This document shows, in pieces, positions 1,991 through 58,750 of a DNA stretch of 64,000 bases (position 1 is the first letter of the stretch; every line of letters starts with the position of its first letter). Location of the stretch: positions 4,190 through 68,189 of the forward strand of contig CAZSKK010000001.1 of NCBI GenBank assembly GCA_964607415.1, written 5' to 3'. Position numbers and translations under genes: made by a program. Below the pieces are notes generated by a model, which was not told where the DNA came from, did not search any database, and worked only from the letters and a program-made list of their open reading frames with translations. The stretch comes from an uncultured Candidatus Saccharibacteria bacterium (GTDB lineage Bacteria > Patescibacteriota > Dojkabacteria > J137).

Positions 1991-2136
1991 TCCTCTTCGA
2001 GGATCAAATGCGGTCATAAGTTTCGGCTGTACTTCGTTTGCCTCAACTTGACCTTATTTGTCGAACTTTCGTTCTCATTTTTATTTCCTCTAATTTGCAA
2101 ATTTACCACTGCAAATTGCAGTGTTAAATTCACAAT

Positions 2137-2224
2137 CGGAGAGGAAGAGATTCGAACTCTCGCTAGGATTGCTCCTACTACGGGTTTAGCAAACCCGCCC
2201 CTTCAACCACTTGGGTACCTCTCC
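2137..2224 (-). tRNA. tRNA-Ser (anticodon GCU), 88 nt with a long variable arm. No CCA is encoded.
   Basis: The reverse complement folds as a cloverleaf: acceptor GGAGAGG/CCTCTCC; anticodon stem CGGGT/ACCCG with loop TTGCTAA (anticodon GCT); long variable arm TAGGAGCAATCCTA; T arm GAGAG-TTCGAAT-CTCTT; discriminator G. Confidence 0.85.
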
Positions 2225-2456
2225 ATGAATTAGTTTTGAGTTTAAGTAAATAGCAATAGTAAATGCTAAATGTTTATTATTGGTGCTGCTTTTTACTTGC
2301 ACTTAAACTTACACCTTGGCTTTCTTATGACTGTCTTAATCTCAGTCAAAGAATTATACTAAAAATTATCCTAAATGGCGAAGTGAAAATTCTTCTATAT
2401 TCATTCTATAATTTACATAAGTGCTAAAATAATTGTATAGCTGTTAGTTTATTCTT

Positions 2457-22380: not shown

Positions 22381-22725
22381 ATGGAAACATTTGAACTTGA
22401 TTTCCGTTTACAGGCTTTAACTTATTTAAACGAAAATATTGATTGGTCAAATGCATCATCTAAACTTATTACTATACTTTTTATTTCTGCAGCATGTGCA
22501 GGTAAATTGAGATTAGTTCATTATTCTTCATATAACTCGATTTGTGATGAATCTAAAAAACTAAAAGCAGAAAAAGTTATTCCTCTGATTGTTAGATCCT
22601 ACGACAAATCGATTGAATTTACTGACGACCCGATAGAAAAGGCTAGACTTAGAGAAGAACAGAAAAATCTTTGTACTAATTATGATGAGATTCTTAATAC
22701 AAAACTGCAACCGGCCGAAGCTTGA
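22381..22725 (+). CDS. Hypothetical protein, paralogue A of a tandem pair.
   Basis: Shares a conserved pattern with the 22809-23141 ORF (DW.N....I.I...A....L...H.S..N....K......L.V.SY...IE...D..IK...E..N..NY..I). Confidence 0.4.
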   Translation: METFELDFRLQALTYLNENIDWSNASSKLITILFISAACAGKLRLVHYSSYNSICDESKKLKAEKVIPLIVRSYDKSIEFTDDPIEKARLREEQKNLCTNYDEILNTKLQPAEA

Positions 22726-22808: not shown

Positions 22809-23141
22809 ATGAGCGATGGGTCCTACAATTTGTATCCTTTAAATGAGTTAGACGATTCGTTGGATTGGAAAAACAGTGGTTATTCTGAAGTTATAGCAAT
22901 ATTTAGAACAGCAGCAGATAAGGGTGTACTTAGATTTCTTCATATCTCATGTATAAATGCATTAAATAATGGATTAATTAAACCTGAGATATTTGTGTCT
23001 TTGCTTGTCAAATCCTACGAAGTGGCAATAGAAGCAGCTATTGATACTGATAGTGCAATAAAATTAAAAAAAGAAAAAGAAAATTTCCAGAGCAATTATA
23101 GAAAGATAACAGCTGTAGATTTAGATGGTATGGAGCAATAA
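22809..23141 (+). CDS. Hypothetical protein, paralogue B of the tandem pair.
   Basis: See the previous entry. Same length, collinear similarity. Confidence 0.4.
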   Translation: MSDGSYNLYPLNELDDSLDWKNSGYSEVIAIFRTAADKGVLRFLHISCINALNNGLIKPEIFVSLLVKSYEVAIEAAIDTDSAIKLKKEKENFQSNYRKITAVDLDGMEQ

Positions 23142-23276: not shown

Positions 23277-25916
23277 TTATTTTTTTAATTCACTCATACT
23301 CTTAAAAACTTGCACTAAAAGTTCAACATGCTGATTGAAGTCTTCTCCAAATTTTTCTAATCCGTAAGCTATATCCTCTCTATTAATTTTTGCCGCAAAG
23401 TGCTTATCTTTAAGTCTTTTTTTAACTCCTTTTGCATCCATTCCATCAAAACCCTGAGGTCTCATTAAGCTATAAGCATATAAAAATCCTGATAATTCAT
23501 CGCATGCAATTAGAGCGGCAGAAAGTTTTGTATCAGCAATTACTCCGTCGCCAATTTTATGCGCTTTTACAGCATGAATTAAGGCTCCAGGATATCCCCA
23601 TTTTGTAAACCACTCAATTGCTTTATTGGGATGTTCGTTTGGAAATTCGTAATAATCTATGTCGTGAAGTAGCCCTGTGATGTACCATAAGTCAGCATCG
23701 AGCTCTGAGCTTCCAGTTTTGGAGTTCAGCTTTTTAGCCCAAGCTTCCATTGCATTTGCAACCATTTTAGAATGCAAGATCTGATATTCATCTTTAACAT
23801 GTTCTTCCAAAAGTTTTAAAGCTTCATCTCTATTTGGAAGCTTACCTTCTTGATTAGGATCAATTTCAATAGAACTCTTTTGGGCTGCATTTTCGGATTT
23901 CTTTTGTTCAAATTTATCAATATTGGAATTAAGTGCATGTTTTTGCTCTGGTGTAATTACATCCAAAAAACTTTTACCTATTGAATCTGTATGAACATCT
24001 AGAATTAAAATTCCTTCATGATCATGCCCAATTCCAATTTCATCCTCAGCCAAAATCATTCCTTCAGATATGACTCCTCTTAAAGCCTTTTTTTCTAATT
24101 TTATTTCTTCATTATTGAAAATTAAAAAACCTGGAACAATATTTCCTTCACCTAGATACGGGACTAAATCATTAACTCTTATGTTGCTAGCTCCGGTTAC
24201 AATTTCTTTTTGAACATTACCATTATCAATTTTTACAATACTAAGTTTATCGGCGTTTGGATGTTTGGTAATTTCGATAATTTTGACTACTTGAATGTTC
24301 TTTACTAAATCTAAGAGCTGCGAGCTGTGAGCTCCGAGTTTCGAATCAGCTGGCTTTGAACTTTTCTTTTCTTCGAACTTAACTTGGGGGTAGATCTTCT
24401 TTGTATTTTCGTCAACACTTGTTTTTAGCTGAGGGAAAGGAACCCCTTCTTTTGCGGTAACATTTTCGAAAAACCAGAACACTCTTTCACTATGTCCATA
24501 ACCTACAGCTGGTGCCATGCCGTATTCCAACATTTCCACAAAATCGATATCCAGCATGTGAGCTTCATCATCACCAGAATCTCTTAAATTCTGTTGTTCT
24601 AAAAATCTTTCTAATTGATCAACCGGATCATTAAGTTCTGAAAATGCGTTTCCAAGCTCGCTTCCTGCAATGACTGGGTGGAATCTACAAGTCAGTCTTG
24701 CATCTTCTAAACTAGACTTTGCAAGCGGAGATAAAAATTTAGGAACATCAATTAAAAATGCCGGTCCTGCAATTGTTTTTCTTATTACTTTCCAAAGGTT
24801 ATCAACTACTCTATTTTTGTTTGTTTCTTCACCTAAATCTACACCATTTTCTTTCAAAACAGTATTCATTTTTTGAAGATCATCATTAAAAATATCTACT
24901 TTTAATCTTTCTCTAATAATGTCTGCAAAATGAATAATTTCCCATTCGTCATTCAAATTTACTTTAAATCCTTTTATTTCAAATTCAAGTTTTCCATAAA
25001 CTTCCTGCATTACATATTTAAATAGATTTTTTGTAAATTCCATCCCATCTTTGTAATCTGCATATGCCCAGTACCACTCCATTGCAATATGTTCTGGTAG
25101 ATGCTCATCGCTAAAACCTTCGTTTCTAAATCTTGGCCCAAGATCGTAAACTTTTTCAAATCCGCTACCTATTAATCTTTTTAAAGGAAGTTCGTGGGAA
25201 ATTCTTAAATAAAAATCTTGATCTAATGTATCGTAGTGAGTTACAAAAGGCTTCGCATCAGCACCGCCTGTTACATGCTCTAAAACTGGAATATTAACTT
25301 CTATAAATCCATTTTGATTTAAAAAATCCCTTGTTGCTTGCCAGAATTTTGCTCTTCTTTCAAATCTTTGTCTTACTTCCGGATGAAGGGTCATATCTAA
25401 ATACCTTCTTCTGAATCTTTCTTCAACATCATCCAAGTTTGTTGGAAGTGGTCTTATTGCTTTTGTAAGAATTCTTAAGTTTTTAACTAAAATTGAAATT
25501 TCACCTCTTTGGGTTTTTGTAATAACACCTTCCGTTTCTACAATATCTCCAATGTCAAGTAGATTTAGATCTTTAAATCCGACTGTCTGATTGGCTTTTG
25601 ACGTCCCAGAAATTTCATCATCTTTAATATAAAGTTGGATTTCTCCTGTTTGGTCTTGAATGTGTCCGAAAATTAAGTGACCGTGCTCTCTCCAGCTCAT
25701 TAATCTTCCTGCTAAAATCACAGTTTGATTTTCCAACGAATCAAAATTAGAAATTACATCAATGACTTTATGATCACGCTTAGATTTTGAAGGGTATGGA
25801 TCAATTCCTAGGTCCTTCAACTTTTGTACTTTTTGAAGCCTTAAAGTTCTTTGTCCGATTAGGTCTGAGGTTTCTTTGGTTATAGCCATATATAGTTTAA
25901 TTAAGTTTAGATTCAC
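23277..25916 (-). CDS. lysS: Lysyl-tRNA synthetase (class II) fused to a C-terminal tRNA-binding (Trbp111/EMAPII-like) domain and a YqeK-like HD phosphohydrolase domain.
   Basis: 879 aa. Class II LysRS motifs (GPRFRNEG; GSELGNAFSEL; GYGHSERVF). Then ...KHPNADKLSIVKIDNG...GVISEGMILAED (tRNA-binding fold). Then HSKMVANAME...GLLHDIDY...EHPNK...HAVKAHK...ACDE (HD domain). Confidence 0.85.
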   Translation of the reverse strand: MNLNLIKLYMAITKETSDLIGQRTLRLQKVQKLKDLGIDPYPSKSKRDHKVIDVISNFDSLENQTVILAGRLMSWREHGHLIFGHIQDQTGEIQLYIKDDEISGTSKANQTVGFKDLNLLDIGDIVETEGVITKTQRGEISILVKNLRILTKAIRPLPTNLDDVEERFRRRYLDMTLHPEVRQRFERRAKFWQATRDFLNQNGFIEVNIPVLEHVTGGADAKPFVTHYDTLDQDFYLRISHELPLKRLIGSGFEKVYDLGPRFRNEGFSDEHLPEHIAMEWYWAYADYKDGMEFTKNLFKYVMQEVYGKLEFEIKGFKVNLNDEWEIIHFADIIRERLKVDIFNDDLQKMNTVLKENGVDLGEETNKNRVVDNLWKVIRKTIAGPAFLIDVPKFLSPLAKSSLEDARLTCRFHPVIAGSELGNAFSELNDPVDQLERFLEQQNLRDSGDDEAHMLDIDFVEMLEYGMAPAVGYGHSERVFWFFENVTAKEGVPFPQLKTSVDENTKKIYPQVKFEEKKSSKPADSKLGAHSSQLLDLVKNIQVVKIIEITKHPNADKLSIVKIDNGNVQKEIVTGASNIRVNDLVPYLGEGNIVPGFLIFNNEEIKLEKKALRGVISEGMILAEDEIGIGHDHEGILILDVHTDSIGKSFLDVITPEQKHALNSNIDKFEQKKSENAAQKSSIEIDPNQEGKLPNRDEALKLLEEHVKDEYQILHSKMVANAMEAWAKKLNSKTGSSELDADLWYITGLLHDIDYYEFPNEHPNKAIEWFTKWGYPGALIHAVKAHKIGDGVIADTKLSAALIACDELSGFLYAYSLMRPQGFDGMDAKGVKKRLKDKHFAAKINREDIAYGLEKFGEDFNQHVELLVQVFKSMSELKK

Positions 25917-25970: not shown

Positions 25971-27044
25971 TCACGTAGCTTTCGCAAAATCACTCATTAA
26001 CTTCTCAACTATCTTCTGAAACTTTATTAGATTCTTTACATCTACACGTTCATGAATTGTGTGTGCATTTTCATCTGGGGATCCAAGACAAAATGTTTCA
26101 ATCCCTGAATTATTTAAAAAGCTGGCATCGCTACCACTTGTTGTTGGCCGGGGATTTATTTTAATACCAAAGTTCCAATAAATTTCACAAAGATTTTTAT
26201 AAGCATTACTTTCGAGATTCTGTACGTAACCTACAGAATAAGGTATCCATGTAAGACGCACTTCAGCTTTAAAACTTTTTGCTACTTCATTAAATTTCTC
26301 AATTATAGCTTTTTTATATTTTTTATAGGAAGTAGAATTATTACTTCGTAAATCACCTTTTAGAGTTATTTTTTCTGGAACTGTATTTGTCGCATTCCCT
26401 CCCGAAATTAGGCCAATATTAAAAGTTGTATCTGAATCTAGCCTTCCAATTTTCAGCTCACTTAAAGCGGTTGTTAAAATTTCAAGTGCATTAATTCCTT
26501 CTTCAGGGTGAGAAGCATGTGAAGACTTACCAAAAATTTCAATTATAAAATCTTCCAGAGTGGGTGCGCTACTTGTTAGCCAACTTAAATCTCCGTTTCC
26601 AGCGTCAAATACAAAGCCAACTTTAGATTTAAGTTGGCTAACATCAAACTCAGATATTCCAGAGTCTGTTTCTTCTCGAACACTAAATAGAAGCTCAATA
26701 TTTGGTGTTTTACTAGCCTTTAATAGACTAGAAACACTATACAAAATTGTAGCCACTGATACTTTATTATCAGCACCTAAAATAGTTTGACCTTCAGATT
26801 TTAAATAACCATTCTTTTCAATGACCTTGATTCCTCTTCCGGGTTCAACTGTATCCATGTGTGCGCAAAAAAGTGATGGATTTGCACCTTCTCCTACTCT
26901 GCAGTAAATCATTTGGTTTCTATCTTGAACAGGATTTAAGTTCAAACTTTTTAAATACTGCATTACAAAATCTGAAACTTCTTGTTCATAACCAGAAACA
27001 GAATCTATCTGTACCAGGCTTTTAAAGAGTGTTGTTAGATCCAT
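25971..27044 (-). CDS. M20-family metallopeptidase (PepT/ArgE/DapE-like).
   Basis: LVQIDSVSGYE...CAHMDTV...GADNK pattern of M20 peptidases. Confidence 0.7.
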   Translation of the reverse strand: MDLTTLFKSLVQIDSVSGYEQEVSDFVMQYLKSLNLNPVQDRNQMIYCRVGEGANPSLFCAHMDTVEPGRGIKVIEKNGYLKSEGQTILGADNKVSVATILYSVSSLLKASKTPNIELLFSVREETDSGISEFDVSQLKSKVGFVFDAGNGDLSWLTSSAPTLEDFIIEIFGKSSHASHPEEGINALEILTTALSELKIGRLDSDTTFNIGLISGGNATNTVPEKITLKGDLRSNNSTSYKKYKKAIIEKFNEVAKSFKAEVRLTWIPYSVGYVQNLESNAYKNLCEIYWNFGIKINPRPTTSGSDASFLNNSGIETFCLGSPDENAHTIHERVDVKNLIKFQKIVEKLMSDFAKAT

Positions 27045-27097
27045 AAAATTAAGATTTAAGAATTAAGAATCGAGAATCATGGGAACTATATAATGTA

Positions 27098-27143
27098 GCT
27101 ATCAGCTATCAGCTATCAGCTATCAGCTATCAGCTATCAGCTC
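27098..27143. repeat. Tandem heptanucleotide repeat (TATCAGC)x6-7 overlapping the 3' end and stop codon of the 27130-27891 gene.
   Basis: AGCTATCAGCTATCAGCTATCAGCTATCAGCTATCAGCTATCAGCTC read directly. A shorter (x3) copy lies inside the 30204-30914 ORF at about 30555-30580. Confidence 0.8.
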
Positions 27144-27891
27144 TAAGCCACTGTGCGAATTGCTGCCTTGATGTTCCAAGTTCATTCATTCTTCTAGCTA
27201 ACACTTCATTTGTTTTTTCAGCAAGTTCTAAATTAGAAATAAATATTTTGCAGCCTGGCGTTTGCAGCATTTCAACGTGAATTGAACTTACGTCGAGCAT
27301 TAAATTTGTCTTAGCTCTTACATGGCAATTCTCTTGAATATGTACTCCAGTTCCGCCTAATGGTTCACTAGGCTCGCACATACAAGTTAAAGCTTCAATA
27401 AATTTCAATCTACATGTACTTCCTGCGAAAAAATTAATTACTGGGTTAAGAACTCGTAAGCTCTTTAGCATTGGAATTGTTGTAGTAGTACCAATAATTA
27501 ACATTTCATTATTAAAAATGGCCTCACTATTAATTTGATGAATCGCTTTTACAACTTGCTTCCCAATTCCTTGGTTTCTATATTCCGTGGATACTATGAC
27601 TGTGCCAAGTTCATAAACTTCAGGACATATTCCTGTAAGCCCTAAATTTTCAATTTGCTCACAATTAAGAAGCGGAATTAACCGGCAGAAAGCAATAGCC
27701 TCACTTTTTTCATTTACATAAAAAACTCCTTTGCCTGCGTAAAAACTTTCTGCAATAGCTTCGGGGTTGGGGTGCATCATTTTATCTTCATGCCCAACCA
27801 ATTCAGAAATTTGCATGGACAATTCTGCAATAGTATAAGGGTTTATGGTTTGGGCTAAAGTAACTATTTGAGTTTCTGCTATTGTATTCAT
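27130..27891 (-). CDS. GNAT-like acetyltransferase-domain protein.
   Basis: RNQGIGKQVVKAI (acetyl-CoA binding motif A). 253 aa. Confidence 0.5.
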   Translation of the reverse strand: MNTIAETQIVTLAQTINPYTIAELSMQISELVGHEDKMMHPNPEAIAESFYAGKGVFYVNEKSEAIAFCRLIPLLNCEQIENLGLTGICPEVYELGTVIVSTEYRNQGIGKQVVKAIHQINSEAIFNNEMLIIGTTTTIPMLKSLRVLNPVINFFAGSTCRLKFIEALTCMCEPSEPLGGTGVHIQENCHVRAKTNLMLDVSSIHVEMLQTPGCKIFISNLELAEKTNEVLARRMNELGTSRQQFAQWLRADS

Positions 27892-43538: not shown

Positions 43539-44027
43539 CTAACCCAACTCGTACTCTTTAACTTTAGAGTTATTTTCATCGTACACAAATACTCCGTTGA
43601 TAGTTTCGCCGTTCAAAACTTTCGGTATCCATTGTGGTGCGTCATCCCACATTCCTTCAAAAGGCAAACTATTAACATCAAACCATTCGGGAATAATTTC
43701 TTCTGATTCTGTTGGTACACCTTCCCATTTGGTGCATGTAAAAAGAACCACTTCCTGATTCCATTTTTCTTTTTCAGGAAAAAAGAACTTTACACTGCCC
43801 TTCCGTTCAAACTCGGTAGGTGTTACATTTATTTCTTCTTGCATCTCTCTAATTACAGCATCAACTTCCGTTTCACCTTCTTCTAGTTTCCCACCAATTC
43901 CAACATAATTTCCAGTTCCCATTCCTTCTTTACGTTTGCCTAATAAAACTTTATCGTTTTTTAGTAAGTAACAAACTACGCGGATTCCTAATTTTGTATT
44001 TTTCAATTCACGGATTTGTTTGTTCAT
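43539..44027 (-). CDS. NUDIX hydrolase (MutT-like).
   Basis: Nudix box GGKLEEGETEVDAVIREMQEEINV. Confidence 0.8.
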   Translation of the reverse strand: MNKQIRELKNTKLGIRVVCYLLKNDKVLLGKRKEGMGTGNYVGIGGKLEEGETEVDAVIREMQEEINVTPTEFERKGSVKFFFPEKEKWNQEVVLFTCTKWEGVPTESEEIIPEWFDVNSLPFEGMWDDAPQWIPKVLNGETINGVFVYDENNSKVKEYELG

Positions 44028-44142
44028 AAGAATATTATAATACTAATATAAAACTATATTTCGTATTTAGATTTTAGAATTTTGAATTTAAAATGTATAT
44101 GCACATATTGCACATTTTTTGCTCATGAAGTAACATCAACAA

Positions 44143-52082: not shown

Positions 52083-52101
52083 AAAATATTCAATATGAAC
52101 T

Positions 52102-52659
52102 ATGATTTCAGCTTGCTTATGTATAGCTCTTATAATAACATTATCTCATATAAGTTATAACAAATTCATGGAAGCAGATTATCTTTACCGTTATGGAGCT
52201 ATTGCAATTATAGTTAAAGATGGAAAATTCCTTGTAATAAACGATATGGGTTTTAATCCAGGTGACTATGACTTTGTGGGTGGTGGAAGAGAAGGTAACG
52301 AAACCCCTGAAGAAAATTTATTTAGAGAAATACAAGAAGAAATAGGCTTAACATCAGAATCATTCCGATTAGTTGGTAAGAGCAAGCATCAAGTTAAATT
52401 TGATTTTAGTGGTGGTTTTAGAGAAATGGGAAATGTGAAGTATAAAGGTCAGATTAAAGACGCTTTTGTACTTGAGTTTTTAGGTGATGAAGAAGATATA
52501 AATCCTGCGCCGGATCAAGTAAGAAGCTACAAATGGGTAGATGCAAGTGAATTAAGTACACATTTAAATTTTAAAGGTCAACTGGAGAATGCAATGCGAA
52601 TAATCCAAGATGTTATTCCAGAATACCTTAGTGAGAATAAAGAGCAAAAATTGGTTTAA
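52102..52659 (+). CDS. NUDIX hydrolase. The likely start is an internal Met at about 52168.
   Basis: Nudix box GGGREGNETPEENLFREIQEEIGL. Confidence 0.8.
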   Translation: MISACLCIALIITLSHISYNKFMEADYLYRYGAIAIIVKDGKFLVINDMGFNPGDYDFVGGGREGNETPEENLFREIQEEIGLTSESFRLVGKSKHQVKFDFSGGFREMGNVKYKGQIKDAFVLEFLGDEEDINPAPDQVRSYKWVDASELSTHLNFKGQLENAMRIIQDVIPEYLSENKEQKLV

Positions 52660-56494: not shown

Positions 56495-56908
56495 TTAAAG
56501 TGTTGCTATGAACTGTTTCACTTCTTGTGGTAATTTCTCAAAGCTTTCTTTATGGTGCAGCTCTAATATCTCATCGTAATTAAAATATCTAGCATCTACT
56601 AAATCATCTCCTGCCGTAGGTTCATCGTTACTAGTACATAAGAAGACAGTACCGTGACTTTTTGAATCTCCAACTACAAGTTCATATTCGCTAAGCTTCC
56701 TAATTATAGTTAGAGCCATATTAAGCTCTTCCTTCATTTCTCTTATTAGAGTATCTTCAATTAATTCATCGCCATCAGCTTTTCCACCTGGAAAATGCCA
56801 AGCATCATTTAAAAAATGTCCAGGTCTATTTCCCTTTTTTCCCATTAATACTTTCTTATCTTTTACTATAATAGCAATCACTCCTCTTCTTATATATTCA
56901 CTTGCCAT
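56495..56908 (-). CDS. NUDIX hydrolase.
   Basis: Nudix box GGKADGDELIEDTLIREMKEELNM. Confidence 0.8.
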   Translation of the reverse strand: MASEYIRRGVIAIIVKDKKVLMGKKGNRPGHFLNDAWHFPGGKADGDELIEDTLIREMKEELNMALTIIRKLSEYELVVGDSKSHGTVFLCTSNDEPTAGDDLVDARYFNYDEILELHHKESFEKLPQEVKQFIATL

Positions 56909-56918
56909 AATAATATTA

Positions 56919-57305
56919 TTAAATATATTTAATTAATTCTTTTGGACTTAAAGCATATCCATCAAACAATACATCTCTACTAACTTCTTGATCTTTCATT
57001 AAAGCATAGATTGGTTTCTTCATTGCATAAGCATATGCAAGTTCCATAGTTACACTATTTCCACAATAGCCTTCTTTATTATAAATGAAGACTACATCAG
57101 CTCTTTCAATTAAGTCGAAATATTCTATAGTAAGACCTTTATATAACTTTCTCAAAGCAGCTTCAGATAGTTTGTCCCAATCATCTGTTCTAAATCCAAG
57201 TTTTGGATAGATTACCCTAAATCCAGCATCTTCAAGTTCTTTAGCAAAGTTTTCAATTTCCTCACCTGCTTTTTTAATTGATCCACTAATTACTATAGTT
57301 TTCAT
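56919..57305 (-). CDS. Nucleoside 2-deoxyribosyltransferase-like (NDT/SLOG superfamily) protein.
   Basis: MKTIVISGS...ADVVFIY...GNSVTMELAYAYAMKKPIYAL: Rossmann-like, with the conserved Glu in the G-x-x-x-E-hG-hA motif. Confidence 0.6.
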   Translation of the reverse strand: MKTIVISGSIKKAGEEIENFAKELEDAGFRVIYPKLGFRTDDWDKLSEAALRKLYKGLTIEYFDLIERADVVFIYNKEGYCGNSVTMELAYAYAMKKPIYALMKDQEVSRDVLFDGYALSPKELIKYI

Positions 57306-57311
57306 AATATA

Positions 57312-58232
57312 TTAATTAAAAATATCCCAATCAAAATCTCTTAGAAACTCTTGATGTAATCTAATTCTTCTTGTACTAAATTCATTTAATTCTTCAGAAT
57401 AATATGCAAGATATTCAATAACTCTTGATAACCAGTACAAAGTGTCCAATTTCTTTTCTGCTTTAGTATAATTCATTAATTTGTAATATTCATGAATAGC
57501 TTTATCTCCTAAATTAAAGTGCCAGATATACATTCTTATTCTTGCGAAATCATAGATCGGGTCTCCGTACATTGCTTCACCCCAATCTATTATTGCCGCT
57601 AATTCATCAGTTTCAGAATTCACGAATAGATTCCTTTGGTTAAAGTCAGAATTCAATAGAGAATAGTTTGAATCTATAAATTTATTCTTTGAAATTACTT
57701 CAATAATTTTGTCTATAGAGTCTAAAATTAATTGCTTATCTAATCCCTCTCGCTTAGATATTTTAACCCAATCTAAATTAGAATTATCACCATTGAAAAA
57801 AGAGAGTAAGAAATCTTTCCATAAATTATATTTTTGATGCGAGTTTAGGTATCCTGCTTTATCAGATTTAACTCTATGTAGTTTCTCCAGATTTTCCACC
57901 ATTGAAGGTATATATTTGCTCATTTCCATGCCTTCAATAGTTTCTAATAATGGAGCTGAAATCTTTTCTAAAATTACAATAGATTTTCCTTCAAAGGTAA
58001 AGCTATCAATGAGTTTCGGTACTGCTAGGTCAACATTTGATTGTTGAAGTATTCTTAAAACGTTAGCATCATTATTATTCTCTTCGCTTTGTTTAATTGC
58101 ATATTCATTGCTATTTTCATCCTTTAAAAAAACTACAGAGCTACCCATTCCTTGTGGTGGAATAGTAGAATCAACAATTATAATATTTAATCTCTTTTGT
58201 ATTTCCTCAATTAGAGCATTCATATATTCCAT
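57312..58232 (-). CDS. APH/choline-kinase family phosphotransferase.
   Basis: LLNSDFNQRNLFV (catalytic loop) and IIDWGEAMYGDPIYDFARI. Confidence 0.7.
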   Translation of the reverse strand: MEYMNALIEEIQKRLNIIIVDSTIPPQGMGSSVVFLKDENSNEYAIKQSEENNNDANVLRILQQSNVDLAVPKLIDSFTFEGKSIVILEKISAPLLETIEGMEMSKYIPSMVENLEKLHRVKSDKAGYLNSHQKYNLWKDFLLSFFNGDNSNLDWVKISKREGLDKQLILDSIDKIIEVISKNKFIDSNYSLLNSDFNQRNLFVNSETDELAAIIDWGEAMYGDPIYDFARIRMYIWHFNLGDKAIHEYYKLMNYTKAEKKLDTLYWLSRVIEYLAYYSEELNEFSTRRIRLHQEFLRDFDWDIFN

Positions 58233-58746
58233 TCACTAAAATGGTTAATTTTTTCTTTAGTTCTCTTTTGATTATATCTCTAGTTCCAGTCCAGCTTAAT
58301 TCTTGATCAATAATATCTATTGGAACAAATTTTCTAAATTGCTGTAACCCGCCTGGATCTTTTATAAATTTATCAATCTTTTTTACCCTTGAGATAAATC
58401 TAAGCTGAGTAGAATCATAAATTTCTTTTCCATCTTTTATTTCATAAGCAATTACATAGAAGAATGGGATAATATATCCCTCATCAATAGTTATTGCAGT
58501 TTCTTCATAAACTTCTCGAATCAATGTTTGTTCGGGAGTCTCACCTTTTTCTCTTGTTCCACCGGGTAATCCCCACCAAGAGCCATCTGCGCTTACTAAT
58601 AGTATTTCATTCTTTTCATTAAGGATTACTCCTAAGCTCTGAGTAGGATCAGTTTCTATAATAGCAAAATCGTTATCAAAGTATTCCTTAAAAAGGATTT
58701 CTTTGTTACCGATTTTAAATTTTGTCTCATTAGTAGGCATCTTCAT
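58207..58746 (-). CDS. NUDIX hydrolase.
   Basis: Nudix box GGTREKGETPEQTLIREVYEETAI. Confidence 0.8.
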   Translation of the reverse strand: MKMPTNETKFKIGNKEILFKEYFDNDFAIIETDPTQSLGVILNEKNEILLVSADGSWWGLPGGTREKGETPEQTLIREVYEETAITIDEGYIIPFFYVIAYEIKDGKEIYDSTQLRFISRVKKIDKFIKDPGGLQQFRKFVPIDIIDQELSWTGTRDIIKRELKKKLTILVNGIYECSN

Positions 58747-58750
58747 GACA

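What the first reader, a model, noticed from the sequence alone, without database searches (positions are those of the whole stretch)
23277..25916. LysRS fused to a tRNA-binding domain and a YqeK-like HD domain: a possible Ap4A synthase-hydrolase fusion
The 879-aa lysS product has a complete class II LysRS core followed by an EMAPII/Trbp111-type OB domain and then an HD domain. The HD histidine/aspartate pattern (H..V, LLHDID, EHP, HAVKAH, ACDE) parallels YqeK, the HD-family Ap4A hydrolase of Gram-positive bacteria. LysRS is the principal cellular source of Ap4A, so a covalent LysRS-YqeK-like fusion would be a Rosetta-stone link between alarmone synthesis and degradation. The tRNA-binding appendage is also atypical for bacterial LysRS.
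Basis: partly seen in the sequence, partly recalled or inferred. Interest (0 to 1): 0.6.

Follow-up and report, generated by a model that had tools for sequence, protein, structure and literature searches.

The report
LysRS fused to an uncharacterised HD hydrolase
This is a real lysyl-tRNA synthetase carrying a tRNA-binding domain and an intact HD-type metal hydrolase; the hydrolase is not the known Ap4A hydrolase YqeK but an unstudied family that has joined LysRS independently in two bacterial phyla, so it very probably acts on something LysRS makes or handles.

Summary
Window 23277-25916(-) is one uninterrupted ORF of 879 aa (870 aa from the ATG at 25889). It has a class II LysRS core, a tRNA_bind OB domain and a C-terminal HD domain.

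The YqeK assignment is not supported. The YqeK model does not hit the window protein and reaches 1 of 58 family members at E 0.05. hhalign against solved YqeKs gives 68% probability over only the generic H...HD half. The YqeK phosphate-binding Lys (HDYAK) is replaced (HDxD[Y/F/W]). No YqeK appears in the top 50 Foldseek PDB hits.

The HD belongs to an uncharacterised family, mostly free-standing proteins of about 180 aa found in several phyla. All metal-ligand residues are invariant in 362 members.

- 109 of the 120 nearest LysRS homologs, all Patescibacteria-like, carry this HD.
- The 11 others include LysRS-DUF2000, LysRS-tRNA_bind and plain forms; in the three contexts examined the HD is encoded next to lysS.
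- Bacteroidota, including cultured Arcicella, carry the reverse order, HD-LysRS.
- A LysRS-Nudix-HD form and a MazG-HD form also exist.

The best inference is that the HD hydrolyses LysRS adenylyl-transfer by-products such as Ap4A and other Ap4N. That would make it analogous to YqeK, not a family member. This is untested, and I found no literature on it.

The parts
23277..25916 (-). Whole ORF (879 aa from GTG; the probable true start is the ATG at 25889, giving 870 aa; stop codon at 23277-23279)
   Evidence: ORF; P0121, 870 aa, 100% identity, held by NCBI and Logan
25467..25721 (-). N-terminal anticodon-binding OB fold of class II LysRS (aa 66-150)
   Evidence: PF01336, E 4.9e-12
24432..25427 (-). 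Class II catalytic core (aa 164-495), containing motif 2 'RFRNE' and the motif 3 Arg
   Evidence: PF00152, E 3.9e-58; lysS models PRK00484 and TIGR00499 both above their curated cut-offs. The motifs were read directly from the translation.
23997..24296 (-). tRNA_bind OB domain (aa 541-640), closest to the PheRS-beta B2 and YtpR type
   Evidence: PF01588, E 4.9e-14; pheT_bact positions 44-151, E 8.7e-23; YtpR, E 1.2e-16.
23847..23996 (-). Low-complexity linker (aa 641-690). It occupies the position of the stop codon plus intergenic spacer in relatives whose HD is a separate downstream gene.
   Evidence: comparison with the P0239/L086 and P0183/L084 gene pairs
23286..23843 (-). HD phosphohydrolase domain of the LysRS-associated family (aa 692-877). 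Invariant residues: H715, H751-D752, D754, H762, H786, D806-E807, K833, F840, R846.
   Evidence: family HMM, 289.7 bits, profile positions 2-181 of 182; invariance across 362 members; AF2 model, pLDDT 95.5, all-helical

Best explanation
SHOWN.
- The gene encodes the class II lysyl-tRNA synthetase of a low-GC, Dojkabacteria-like Patescibacteria (CPR) bacterium.
- Its C-terminus carries a PheT-B2/Trbp111-type tRNA-binding OB domain, a linker of about 50 aa, and then a complete HD metal-dependent hydrolase domain.
- The HD domain is not YqeK. It belongs to a distinct, uncharacterised HD family with the signature H...HDxD[YFW]xx[FW]PxxHP...H...DE...KxxKDKxFAAxxxR.
- The family is mostly free-standing proteins of about 180 aa, found in Patescibacteria, Bacteroidota, Thermoleophilia, Caldilineaceae and Opitutia.
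- In Patescibacteria this HD is almost always fused to the C-terminus of LysRS or encoded just downstream of lysS.
- In Bacteroidota a distant subclade is fused to the N-terminus of LysRS.
- The window's version is the lysS-tRNA_bind gene joined to its downstream HD gene into one frame.

INFERRED.
- The six-ligand motif is invariant in fused and free forms alike, so the HD is an active, probably binuclear, phosphohydrolase.
- Two independent fusions in opposite order, plus conserved adjacency, mean its substrate is something LysRS produces or handles.
- The most likely substrates are dinucleoside polyphosphates (Ap4A, Ap3A, Ap4N), which LysRS makes by transferring AMP from Lys-AMP to ATP or other nucleotides.
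- The tethered HD would clear them at source and return ADP/ATP to a cell that cannot make nucleotides de novo.
- That is functionally analogous to YqeK or ApaH, and follows the common pairing of a nucleotidyl-transferring enzyme with an HD hydrolase.
- The tRNA_bind domain most likely just raises affinity for tRNA(Lys), acting independently of the HD.
For: Architecture.

Family identity and invariant catalytic residues.

High-confidence HD fold.

LysRS linkage:
- 109 of 120 nearest LysRS homologs carry the HD across the full profile length.
- Adjacency where the two are not fused: L002 with a 2-nt gap, L086 with a 14-nt gap, L084 with one gene between.
- In the genome survey, CPR loci are fused or adjacent; non-CPR loci are free-standing with no lysS within 4 kb.
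- Independent reverse-order HD-LysRS fusion in 13 Bacteroidota clusters, including Arcicella and Mucilaginibacter.
- Fused and free HD domains interleave by identity, which implies repeated fusion and fission.

Support for a nucleotide substrate:
- LysRS-NUDIX-HD (P0345; the frame is valid in a code-25 organism).
- MazG-HD (P0318).
- The best curated HMM neighbour is the HD half of an NTP-transferase-HD protein, NF045665.

LysRS as a principal Ap4A/Ap4N source: PMC13627108.
Against: - No enzymology exists for any member of this family, so the substrate assignment is guilt by association.
- The YqeK phosphate-binding Lys and the YqeK nucleotide pocket are absent, so Ap4A binding would have to be achieved in a different way.
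- The other modules found on sister LysRSs (tRNA_bind, PheRS B3_4, DUF2000) are tRNA-related. The nearest solved fold is the tRNA-acceptor-contacting HD of GlyRS-beta, and 43 of 58 members show weak similarity to the RNase Y HD. All of this fits an RNA or tRNA substrate as well.
- The Nudix and MazG fusions are single clusters.
- The window alone already encodes five Nudix hydrolases, one of them RppH/NudH-like, which could cover NpnN hydrolysis.
- In non-CPR phyla most members are not linked to lysS.
Confidence: 0.4

Rival explanations
1. The HD acts on tRNA(Lys) or another RNA end rather than on free nucleotides. It could be a 2',3'-cyclic phosphodiesterase or 3'-phosphatase that repairs the tRNA 3' end before charging, as the HD of bacterial CCA-adding enzymes does, or an RNase-Y-like phosphodiesterase. 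LysRS would supply the tRNA binding.
For: - The accessory modules on sister LysRS-HD proteins are all tRNA-related: tRNA_bind, PheRS-beta B3_4, and tRNA_bind plus B3_4 together.
- The top Foldseek hits are the GlyRS-beta HD domain, which approaches the tRNA acceptor arm.
- 43 of 58 members weakly match the RNase Y model.
- A weak match to the aTrm56-HD fusion model occurs in 14 of 58 members.
Against: - Most LysRS-HD proteins (about 700 aa) have no extra tRNA module.
- The family is mostly a free-standing 180-aa protein with no RNA-binding domain.
- The MazG and Nudix partners point to nucleotides.
- The fold matches are weak, with TM about 0.43.
- The GlyRS-beta HD has lost its HD dyad, whereas this one is invariant.
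Confidence: 0.2
2. The HD is a general nucleotide house-cleaning or salvage phosphohydrolase, acting on NTPs, NMPs, (p)ppGpp or similar. Fusion to lysS would reflect only co-expression with a constitutively expressed essential gene, with no substrate channelling from LysRS.
For: - Free-standing members in four other phyla show no lysS linkage.
- The MazG-HD fusion.
- Foldseek hits include YpgQ, small alarmone hydrolases, YfbR and dGTPases at similarly weak scores.
Against: Among the best 150 representatives the recurring long fusion partner is LysRS, the single MazG-HD aside. No other synthetase or housekeeping gene was seen in the ten longer proteins scanned. The LysRS fusion arose at least twice, in opposite orientation, in unrelated phyla, and adjacency is conserved where fusion is absent. 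That specificity is hard to explain by co-expression alone.
Confidence: 0.15
3. The HD is a true, divergent YqeK orthologue.
For: - It shares the six-ligand H...HD...H...H...D pattern and has a similar size.
- 48 of 58 members weakly match the HD half of the NadD-HD model PRK07152, best E 1.9e-06.
Against: - TIGR00488: no hit on the window protein, and 1 of 58 family members at E 0.05.
- A local YqeK HMM with filters off gives no hit.
- The PDB profile search finds no YqeK.
- hhalign gives 68% probability over 50 columns only.
- The HDYAK Lys and the C-terminal binding residues are absent.
- No YqeK appears in the top 50 fold hits.
- Similarity to RNase Y and to DVU_1551 HD domains is equal or better.
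Confidence: 0.03
4. The HD is a non-catalytic structural or tRNA-binding module, like the degenerate HD domain of the bacterial GlyRS beta-subunit.
For: The GlyRS-beta HD is the best Foldseek hit, and it is a precedent for an HD domain built into a synthetase.
Against: All metal ligands are invariant in 118 C-terminally fused, 5 N-terminally fused and 188 free members. The GlyRS-beta HD has Ser-Lys in place of His-Asp.
Confidence: 0.05
5. The fusion is an assembly or frameshift artefact that joins two genes.
For: The closest LysRS-tRNA_bind relatives have the HD as a separate gene, and this exact three-domain order was seen in only one 90% cluster.
Against: - The frame is continuous.
- The identical protein is present in both NCBI and Logan.
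- More than 100 other LysRS-HD fusions exist, including LysRS-tRNA_bind-B3_4-HD.
Confidence: 0.02

Closest known systems
YqeK (COG1713 / TIGR00488), the HD-domain symmetrical Ap4A/Ap4N hydrolase of Firmicutes
   Same: - HD superfamily, about 180-190 aa, all-helical.
- The same six-ligand H...HD...H...H...D arrangement.
- The proposed role is the same: removal of Ap4N made by aminoacyl-tRNA synthetases.
   Different: - Not a family member by HMM, profile-profile or fold ranking.
- The motif is HDxD[YFW] rather than HDYAK.
- There is no counterpart of the YqeK C-terminal nucleotide-binding residues.
- The genomic partner is lysS. From general knowledge, YqeK sits in a nadD/rsfS context.
- The activity is untested.
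HD domain of the bacterial (alpha-beta)2 GlyRS beta-subunit (PDB 7eiv, 8ie2, 7lu4)
   Same: - An HD-fold domain built into an aminoacyl-tRNA synthetase.
- It is the best Foldseek PDB match to the model (E 2e-03, prob 1.0).
   Different: - The GlyRS-beta HD has lost the His-Asp dyad (Ser-Lys) and bound none of the nucleotides tested (PMC8464048). Here the ligands are invariant.
- TM is only about 0.43 and sequence identity about 15%.
Nucleotidyl-transferase + HD hydrolase pairs (SpoT/Rel, GlnD, bacterial CCA-adding enzyme, NadD-YqeK fusions, DVU_1551 NTP-transferase-HD)
   Same: - The design logic is the same: an enzyme that transfers a nucleotidyl or pyrophosphoryl group is tethered to an HD hydrolase that removes or repairs the product.
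- The DVU_1551 HD half is the best curated HMM neighbour (E 4e-11).
   Different: - The transferase here is a class II aminoacyl-tRNA synthetase, and no described pair of this kind was found in the literature searches.
- The HD belongs to a different family from each of those.
- The list of pairs rests on general knowledge (Aravind and Koonin 1998), not on tests made here.
tRNA_bind (Trbp111/EMAPII/CsaA/YtpR) appendages of MetRS and PheRS-beta
   Same: The middle domain matches PF01588 and aligns best to PheRS-beta B2 and to YtpR.
   Different: It is attached to a LysRS, which is rare: 4 clusters among those examined. In one relative, P0359, it comes together with the PheRS B3_4 editing domain.

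Membership tests
Class II lysyl-tRNA synthetase (lysS) | Scores above the curated cut-off of the lysS equivalog and subfamily HMMs over their full length | tested here: met
   PRK00484 487.2 bits (cut-off 468), profile 4-487 of 488; TIGR00499 438.8 bits (cut-off 427.6)
Class II lysyl-tRNA synthetase (lysS) | N-terminal OB anticodon-binding domain, plus a class II core with motif 2 (fRxE) and the motif 3 Arg | tested here: met
   PF01336 and PF00152. 'RFRNE' and 'GYGHSER' were read from the translation.
tRNA_bind (PF01588) | Pfam model above the gathering score | tested here: met
   52.6 bits against a cut-off of 27
HD superfamily (PF01966) | Pfam HD above the gathering score, with conserved H...HD...D metal ligands and an all-helical fold | tested here: met
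   29.7 bits against 22; invariant H715, H751-D752, D806; model is all helices, pLDDT 95.5.
YqeK (COG1713/TIGR00488) | Matches the YqeK equivalog HMM | tested here: not met
   - no hit at E<=10.
- 1 of 58 family members, at E 0.05.
- a YqeK HMM built from 5 PDB sequences, run with --max, does not hit the ORF.
YqeK (COG1713/TIGR00488) | Full-length profile-profile homology to solved YqeKs | tested here: not met
   hhalign probability 68%, with 50 columns aligned (the N-terminal H...HD half only); the profile search against PDB finds no YqeK.
YqeK (COG1713/TIGR00488) | Substrate-binding residues: the Lys of HDYAK and the C-terminal Leu/Phe/Thr (Sp-YqeK K62, L172, F180, T183) | tested here: not met
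   one search gives the residue list; the family has HDxD[YFW], and its C-terminal half does not align.
YqeK (COG1713/TIGR00488) | YqeK structures are the nearest structural neighbours | tested here: not met
YqeK (COG1713/TIGR00488) | Symmetrical hydrolysis of Ap4A to 2 ADP | not testable with these tools
   This needs an enzyme assay.
   - no CCA or SpoT models among the hits.
- small alarmone hydrolases and MESH1 appear only at ranks 13-46, with E>=0.1 and TM about 0.4.
GlyRS-beta HD domain | A degenerate (non-catalytic) HD dyad embedded in the beta-subunit | tested here: not met
   the dyad is Ser-Lys in EcGlyRS. His-Asp is invariant here. The similarity is fold-level only.
LysRS-associated HD family (uncharacterised; named by JGI 'predicted hydrolase (HD superfamily)') | Full-length match to the family profile, with the signature H...HDxD[YFW]..P..HP...H...DE...K..K.K.FA....R | tested here: met
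   - 289.7 bits, profile positions 2-181 of 182.
- 1874 relatives.
- 1739 clusters (50% identity) at E<=1e-10.
- signature residues conserved.

The most novel reading that the evidence does not exclude
The LysRS-associated HD family would be a previously unrecognised class of bacterial dinucleoside-tetraphosphate (Ap4N) hydrolase, alongside ApaH, YqeK and Nudix enzymes. Evolution has tethered it repeatedly to the main Ap4A synthase. That would create a self-limiting synthase-hydrolase unit that sets Ap4A output, or removes Np4A caps, at the source in Patescibacteria and some Bacteroidota.
Probability: 0.3. Interest if true: 0.75.

Novelty: new variant of a known kind. Interest (0 to 1): 0.6.

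Why it matters
How Ap4A/Ap4N levels are controlled, and whether these molecules are signals or damage products, is still debated. Outside ApaH (Gram-negatives) and YqeK (Firmicutes), the hydrolases are poorly mapped.

A conserved, catalytically intact hydrolase welded to LysRS is a strong genomic pointer to a missing partner of LysRS chemistry. The evidence is its presence in most of the sampled Patescibacteria LysRS clade and its independent appearance in cultured Bacteroidota.

If it degrades Ap4N, it defines a new hydrolase family. It would also be a rare case of a synthetase policing its own side-product.

If instead it acts on the tRNA 3' end, it would be the first LysRS with a built-in RNA-repair or RNA-processing activity.

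Either outcome assigns a function to a family of at least 1,700 sequence clusters that currently has none. The Arcicella and Mucilaginibacter proteins make it directly testable.

Tried and rejected
1. YqeK membership. Tested five ways and rejected.
2. Assembly or frameshift artefact. Rejected.
3. A link to histidine biosynthesis, suggested by hisZ/hisG near the free-standing gene in Thermoleophilia and by JGI's 'phosphoribosyl-ATP pyrophosphohydrolase' label on the MazG-HD protein.
   - The divergent neighbour is murA, followed by hisZ and hisG, which is lineage-specific synteny.
   - The fusion partner is a genuine MazG.
   - Neighbourhoods in the other non-CPR phyla showed no conserved partner.
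4. Sequence search of the HD region against PDB. The single sequence found nothing relevant. The profile found only a marginal PgpH hit at E 0.16.
6. hhalign in global mode gave a meaningless alignment.
7. DUF2000 fold. The single-sequence AF2 model had pLDDT 42 and was unusable. Only a weak sequence link to PDB 2gax was found, E 0.022. My recollection that DUF2000 is PTH2-like stays untested.
8. Literature. Searches for LysRS-HD fusions, COG2316 and DUF2000 found nothing relevant. The Minazzato 2020 YqeK paper is not held.
9. The look-up of encoding contigs could not locate P0121, so the rest of its 585-kb contig could not be searched for apaH or yqeK.
10. P0360 is not a second MazG-HD cluster.
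Full report
OBSERVATION

The ORF at window 23277-25916 on the minus strand is real and uninterrupted. It is 879 aa from a GTG. An identical 870-aa protein, P0121, starts at the ATG at residue 10 (window 25889). It is held by both NCBI and Logan, on a contig of 584,792 bp.

The window has about 32% GC. The nearest LysRS homologs carry Candidatus Dojkabacteria labels, so the source is a Dojkabacteria-like member of the Patescibacteria (CPR).

Pfam finds four domains, all above cut-off:
- tRNA_anti-codon, residues 66-150
- tRNA-synt_2, residues 164-495
- tRNA_bind, residues 541-640
- HD, residues 715-787

The curated lysS models score above their thresholds over their full length.

The tRNA_bind domain aligns best to the B2 domain of PheRS-beta (E 8.7e-23) and to YtpR.

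WHICH HD CLADE?

Five tests argue against YqeK.

1. The C-terminal 212 aa, scanned alone against NCBIfam at E<=10, gives no YqeK hit. The best matches are the HD half of the DVU_1551 NTP-transferase family (4e-11), generic HDIG, and TIGR00295.
2. When all 58 members of a family alignment (A1) are scanned, results are as follows:
   - HDIG: 58 of 58
   - NadD-HD model PRK07152: 48 of 58, best E 1.9e-06
   - RNase Y: 43 of 58
   - DVU_1551: 28 of 58
   - YqeK equivalog TIGR00488: 1 of 58, at E 0.05
3. I recovered five authentic YqeK sequences from PDB: 2o08, 8wmy, 2ogi, 3ccg and 8jja. Two of them are named bis(5'-nucleosyl)-tetraphosphatase. I used a remembered B. subtilis sequence only as bait. 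An HMM built from the five does not hit the LysRS ORF even with filters off.
4. hhalign of A1 against the YqeK alignment gives 68% probability over 50 columns, which is only the generic N-terminal H...HD half.
5. The A1 profile against all PDB sequences finds only a marginal PgpH match at E 0.16.

A permissive alignment shows that the metal ligands correspond: H32/H21, HD68-69/HD50-51 and H103/H109. However, the YqeK phosphate-binding Lys of 'HDYAK' is an aromatic residue here ('HDxD[Y/F/W]'). The YqeK C-terminal nucleotide-binding segment has no counterpart.

An AlphaFold model of the domain is very confident, with pLDDT 95.5 and pTM 0.92, and consists of nine helices. Foldseek against PDB ranks the hits as follows:
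- First, the HD domain of the bacterial GlyRS beta-subunit (E 2e-03, prob 1.0, TM about 0.43).
- Then Ddi2, YpgQ, small alarmone hydrolases, 2pq7 and YfbR.
- No YqeK in the top 50, and nothing with TM above 0.46.

It is a family of its own.

THE FAMILY

A search with the HD region finds 1,874 relatives. The closest, at 52-66% identity, are free-standing proteins of 175-200 aa from Dojkabacteria and WWE3, named only 'HD domain-containing protein' or 'predicted hydrolase (HD superfamily)'.

An exhaustive profile search of 1.84 billion representatives gives 3,943 clusters at E<=1e-3, 1,739 at E<=1e-10 and 210 at E<=1e-30.

A scan of GTDB species genomes finds the family in these groups:
- Patescibacteria
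- Opitutia
- Thermoleophilia and Solirubrobacterales
- Caldilineaceae
- Chitinophagaceae and other Bacteroidota, including cultured Parafilimonas terrae

Across 362 near-full-length domains, the following residues are essentially invariant (879-aa numbering): H715, H751, D752, D754, H762, H786, D806, E807, K833, F840 and R846. This holds in 118 C-terminally fused, 5 N-terminally fused and 188 free-standing members alike.

This is a six-ligand pattern of the kind seen in binuclear HD enzymes. It is under purifying selection, so the domain is an enzyme and not a degenerate scaffold like the GlyRS-beta HD, where His-Asp has become Ser-Lys (PMC8464048).

THE LINK TO LysRS

This is the main new result.

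Of the 120 proteins most similar to the full-length query, 109 contain this same HD family across the full profile length. The standard form is a LysRS-HD protein of about 700 aa, found under Dojkabacteria, Roizmanbacteria, Yanofskybacteria, WWE3, Microgenomates and 'Patescibacteria group' labels.

Variants carry an extra module:
- LysRS-DUF2000-HD
- LysRS-HD-DUF2000
- LysRS-B3_4-HD
- LysRS-tRNA_bind-B3_4-HD (1,072 aa)
- LysRS-NUDIX-HD (935 aa)
- LysRS-tRNA_bind-HD, the window's own form

The LysRS-NUDIX-HD gene contains 17 in-frame TGA codons, including inside the LysRS core. At the alignable positions, homologs have conserved Gly. The organism therefore uses genetic code 25, and the reading frame is genuine.

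Where LysRS lacks the HD, the HD was the next gene in each of the three contexts examined:
- 2 nt after a LysRS-DUF2000 gene in L002
- 14 nt after a LysRS-tRNA_bind gene in L086
- one gene further along in L084

The window's architecture is therefore that gene pair joined through a low-complexity linker of about 50 aa. Synteny with miaA and an MgtC/DUF4010 gene is shared with L002.

Fused and free HD domains interleave by identity to the window's HD: 70% to a fused one and 68% to a free one. This implies repeated fusion and fission within one orthologous group.

Independently, 13 clusters from Bacteroidota carry the reverse order, HD-LysRS, at about 715 aa. They include Arcicella sp. DC2W / A. 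gelida and Mucilaginibacter. Their HD is only about 35% identical to the window's, but it matches the family profile at full length (E 1e-36 to 1e-47) with all motifs intact.

The evidence thus comprises two independent fusions in opposite order in unrelated phyla, plus conserved adjacency. This is about as strong as Rosetta-stone evidence gets. Among the ten longer proteins scanned, no other synthetase appeared as a partner.

In the non-CPR phyla most members are free-standing with no lysS within 4 kb. Their neighbourhoods were uninformative.

MECHANISM

Shown:
- An intact LysRS.
- An intact HD catalytic centre.
- Specific and recurrent LysRS-HD linkage.

Inferred: the HD works on something LysRS produces or handles.

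The leading candidate is the set of adenylyl-transfer side-products, Ap4A, Ap3A and Ap4N. LysRS makes these when Lys-AMP reacts with ATP or other nucleotides (PMC13627108). Three points support a nucleotide substrate:
- the LysRS-NUDIX-HD architecture
- the MazG-HD architecture
- the best curated neighbour being the HD half of an NTP-transferase-HD protein

The general pattern of nucleotidyl-transferring enzymes paired with HD hydrolases also fits (SpoT, GlnD, CCA-adding enzyme, NadD-YqeK). That pattern rests on established knowledge and was not tested here.

The main rival is an RNA- or tRNA-directed activity, meaning 3'-end repair or processing. It is supported by:
- the tRNA-related accessory modules (tRNA_bind, B3_4)
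- the GlyRS-beta HD being the nearest solved fold
- weak similarity to the RNase Y and aTrm56-HD models

I rate the hypotheses as follows:

| Hypothesis | Confidence |
|---|---|
| Ap4N hydrolysis | about 0.4 |
| tRNA/RNA-end activity | about 0.2 |
| Generic nucleotide house-cleaning | about 0.15 |
| Non-catalytic module | about 0.05 |
| True YqeK orthologue | about 0.03 |
| Artefact | about 0.02 |

The remainder is left unassigned.

Within the 64-kb window there is no YqeK-like ORF. There are five Nudix hydrolases, one closest to RppH/NudH-type enzymes, and a YfbR-like HD_3 protein. The rest of the genome could not be reached.

NOVELTY AND VERDICT

The proteins are in public databases, labelled simply 'lysine--tRNA ligase'. 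Full-text searches found no description of a LysRS-HD fusion or of this HD family.

I class it as a new variant of a known kind: an HD phosphohydrolase tethered to a nucleotidyl-transferring enzyme, where the partner is an aminoacyl-tRNA synthetase and the HD family is uncharacterised.

Interest is moderate to high, at 0.6. The linkage is robust and widespread, and it can be tested in cultured Bacteroidota. The substrate is unknown, and the specific YqeK claim is wrong.

Noticed in passing
window 56498-60058 (-), plus 52099-52656 (+) and 43542-44042 (-): There is an unusual density of nucleotide hydrolases. Five NUDIX-domain ORFs lie in the 64-kb window. Three of them (56498-56932, 58210-58803, 59339-60058) are clustered with a YfbR-like HD_3 5'-deoxynucleotidase at 58754-59335. 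The ORF at 52099-52656 is closest to RppH/NudH-type models, though below their cut-offs. These are alternative candidates for NpnN or cap hydrolysis in this genome.
   Followed up: partly
window 22381-22725 (+) and 22809-23141 (+): Two tandem paralogous small ORFs of 114 and 110 aa (30% identity, E 4e-16) have no Pfam match. They sit between miaA and the 3' end of lysS. In the related Dojkabacteria locus L002, miaA follows the HD gene directly.
   Followed up: partly
related proteins P0167, P0359 (B3_4); P0139, P0143, P0145, P0149, P0160, P0179, P0225 (DUF2000): Sister CPR LysRS proteins carry the PheRS-beta B3_4 editing domain (with or without tRNA_bind) or a DUF2000 domain, placed before or after the HD. 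No LysRS is known to me to have a post-transfer editing domain, so these may be cis-editing or tRNA-handling modules. DUF2000 links only weakly to PDB 2gax (E 0.022), and its fold relationship could not be checked because the model was poor.
   Followed up: partly
L087 1362-4169 (Logan SRR24236066 contig): The LysRS-NUDIX-HD gene has 17 in-frame TGA codons. Homologs have conserved Gly at three of them (39/44, 44/44 and 44/44 at positions 88, 229 and 406), which indicates genetic code 25 (Gracilibacteria/Absconditabacteria type). The source's gene caller translated TGA as Trp (code 4), so the stored protein P0345 probably has W where G is correct.
   Followed up: yes
P0318 (310 aa, NCBI/JGI): This is a MazG NTP-pyrophosphohydrolase domain fused to the same HD family. 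JGI's label 'phosphoribosyl-ATP pyrophosphohydrolase' appears to be a misnomer, since NCBIfam matches MazG models. Only one such cluster was found among the proteins fetched.
   Followed up: partly
loci L006, L011, L010, L012, L013, L015, L016, L020, L028, L030, L034, L035, L037: Record titles call these MAGs 'uncultured Gammaproteobacteria', 'Pseudomonadales' or 'Saccharibacteria'. Most of them carry the CPR-type LysRS-HD arrangement, fused or adjacent, and several have LysRS 55-58% identical to the window's. The taxonomic labels of these TPA assemblies look unreliable.
   Followed up: no
window 25971-27891 (-): A GNAT acetyltransferase (27130-27891) and an M20-family peptidase/deacylase (25971-27044) lie directly upstream of lysS on the same strand, 54 nt from the GTG. 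They may be co-transcribed with lysS. This arrangement is not conserved in L002.
   Followed up: no
loci L039-L083 (Thermoleophilia/Solirubrobacterales): In these actinobacterial genomes the free-standing HD gene sits divergently next to murA-hisZ-hisG and upstream of an isocitrate/isopropylmalate-dehydrogenase-like gene. This is conserved within the order but looks like lineage-specific synteny.
   Followed up: yes
window 2136-2225 (-): tRNA-Ser(GCT) is the only tRNA or Rfam hit in the 64-kb window.
   Followed up: no
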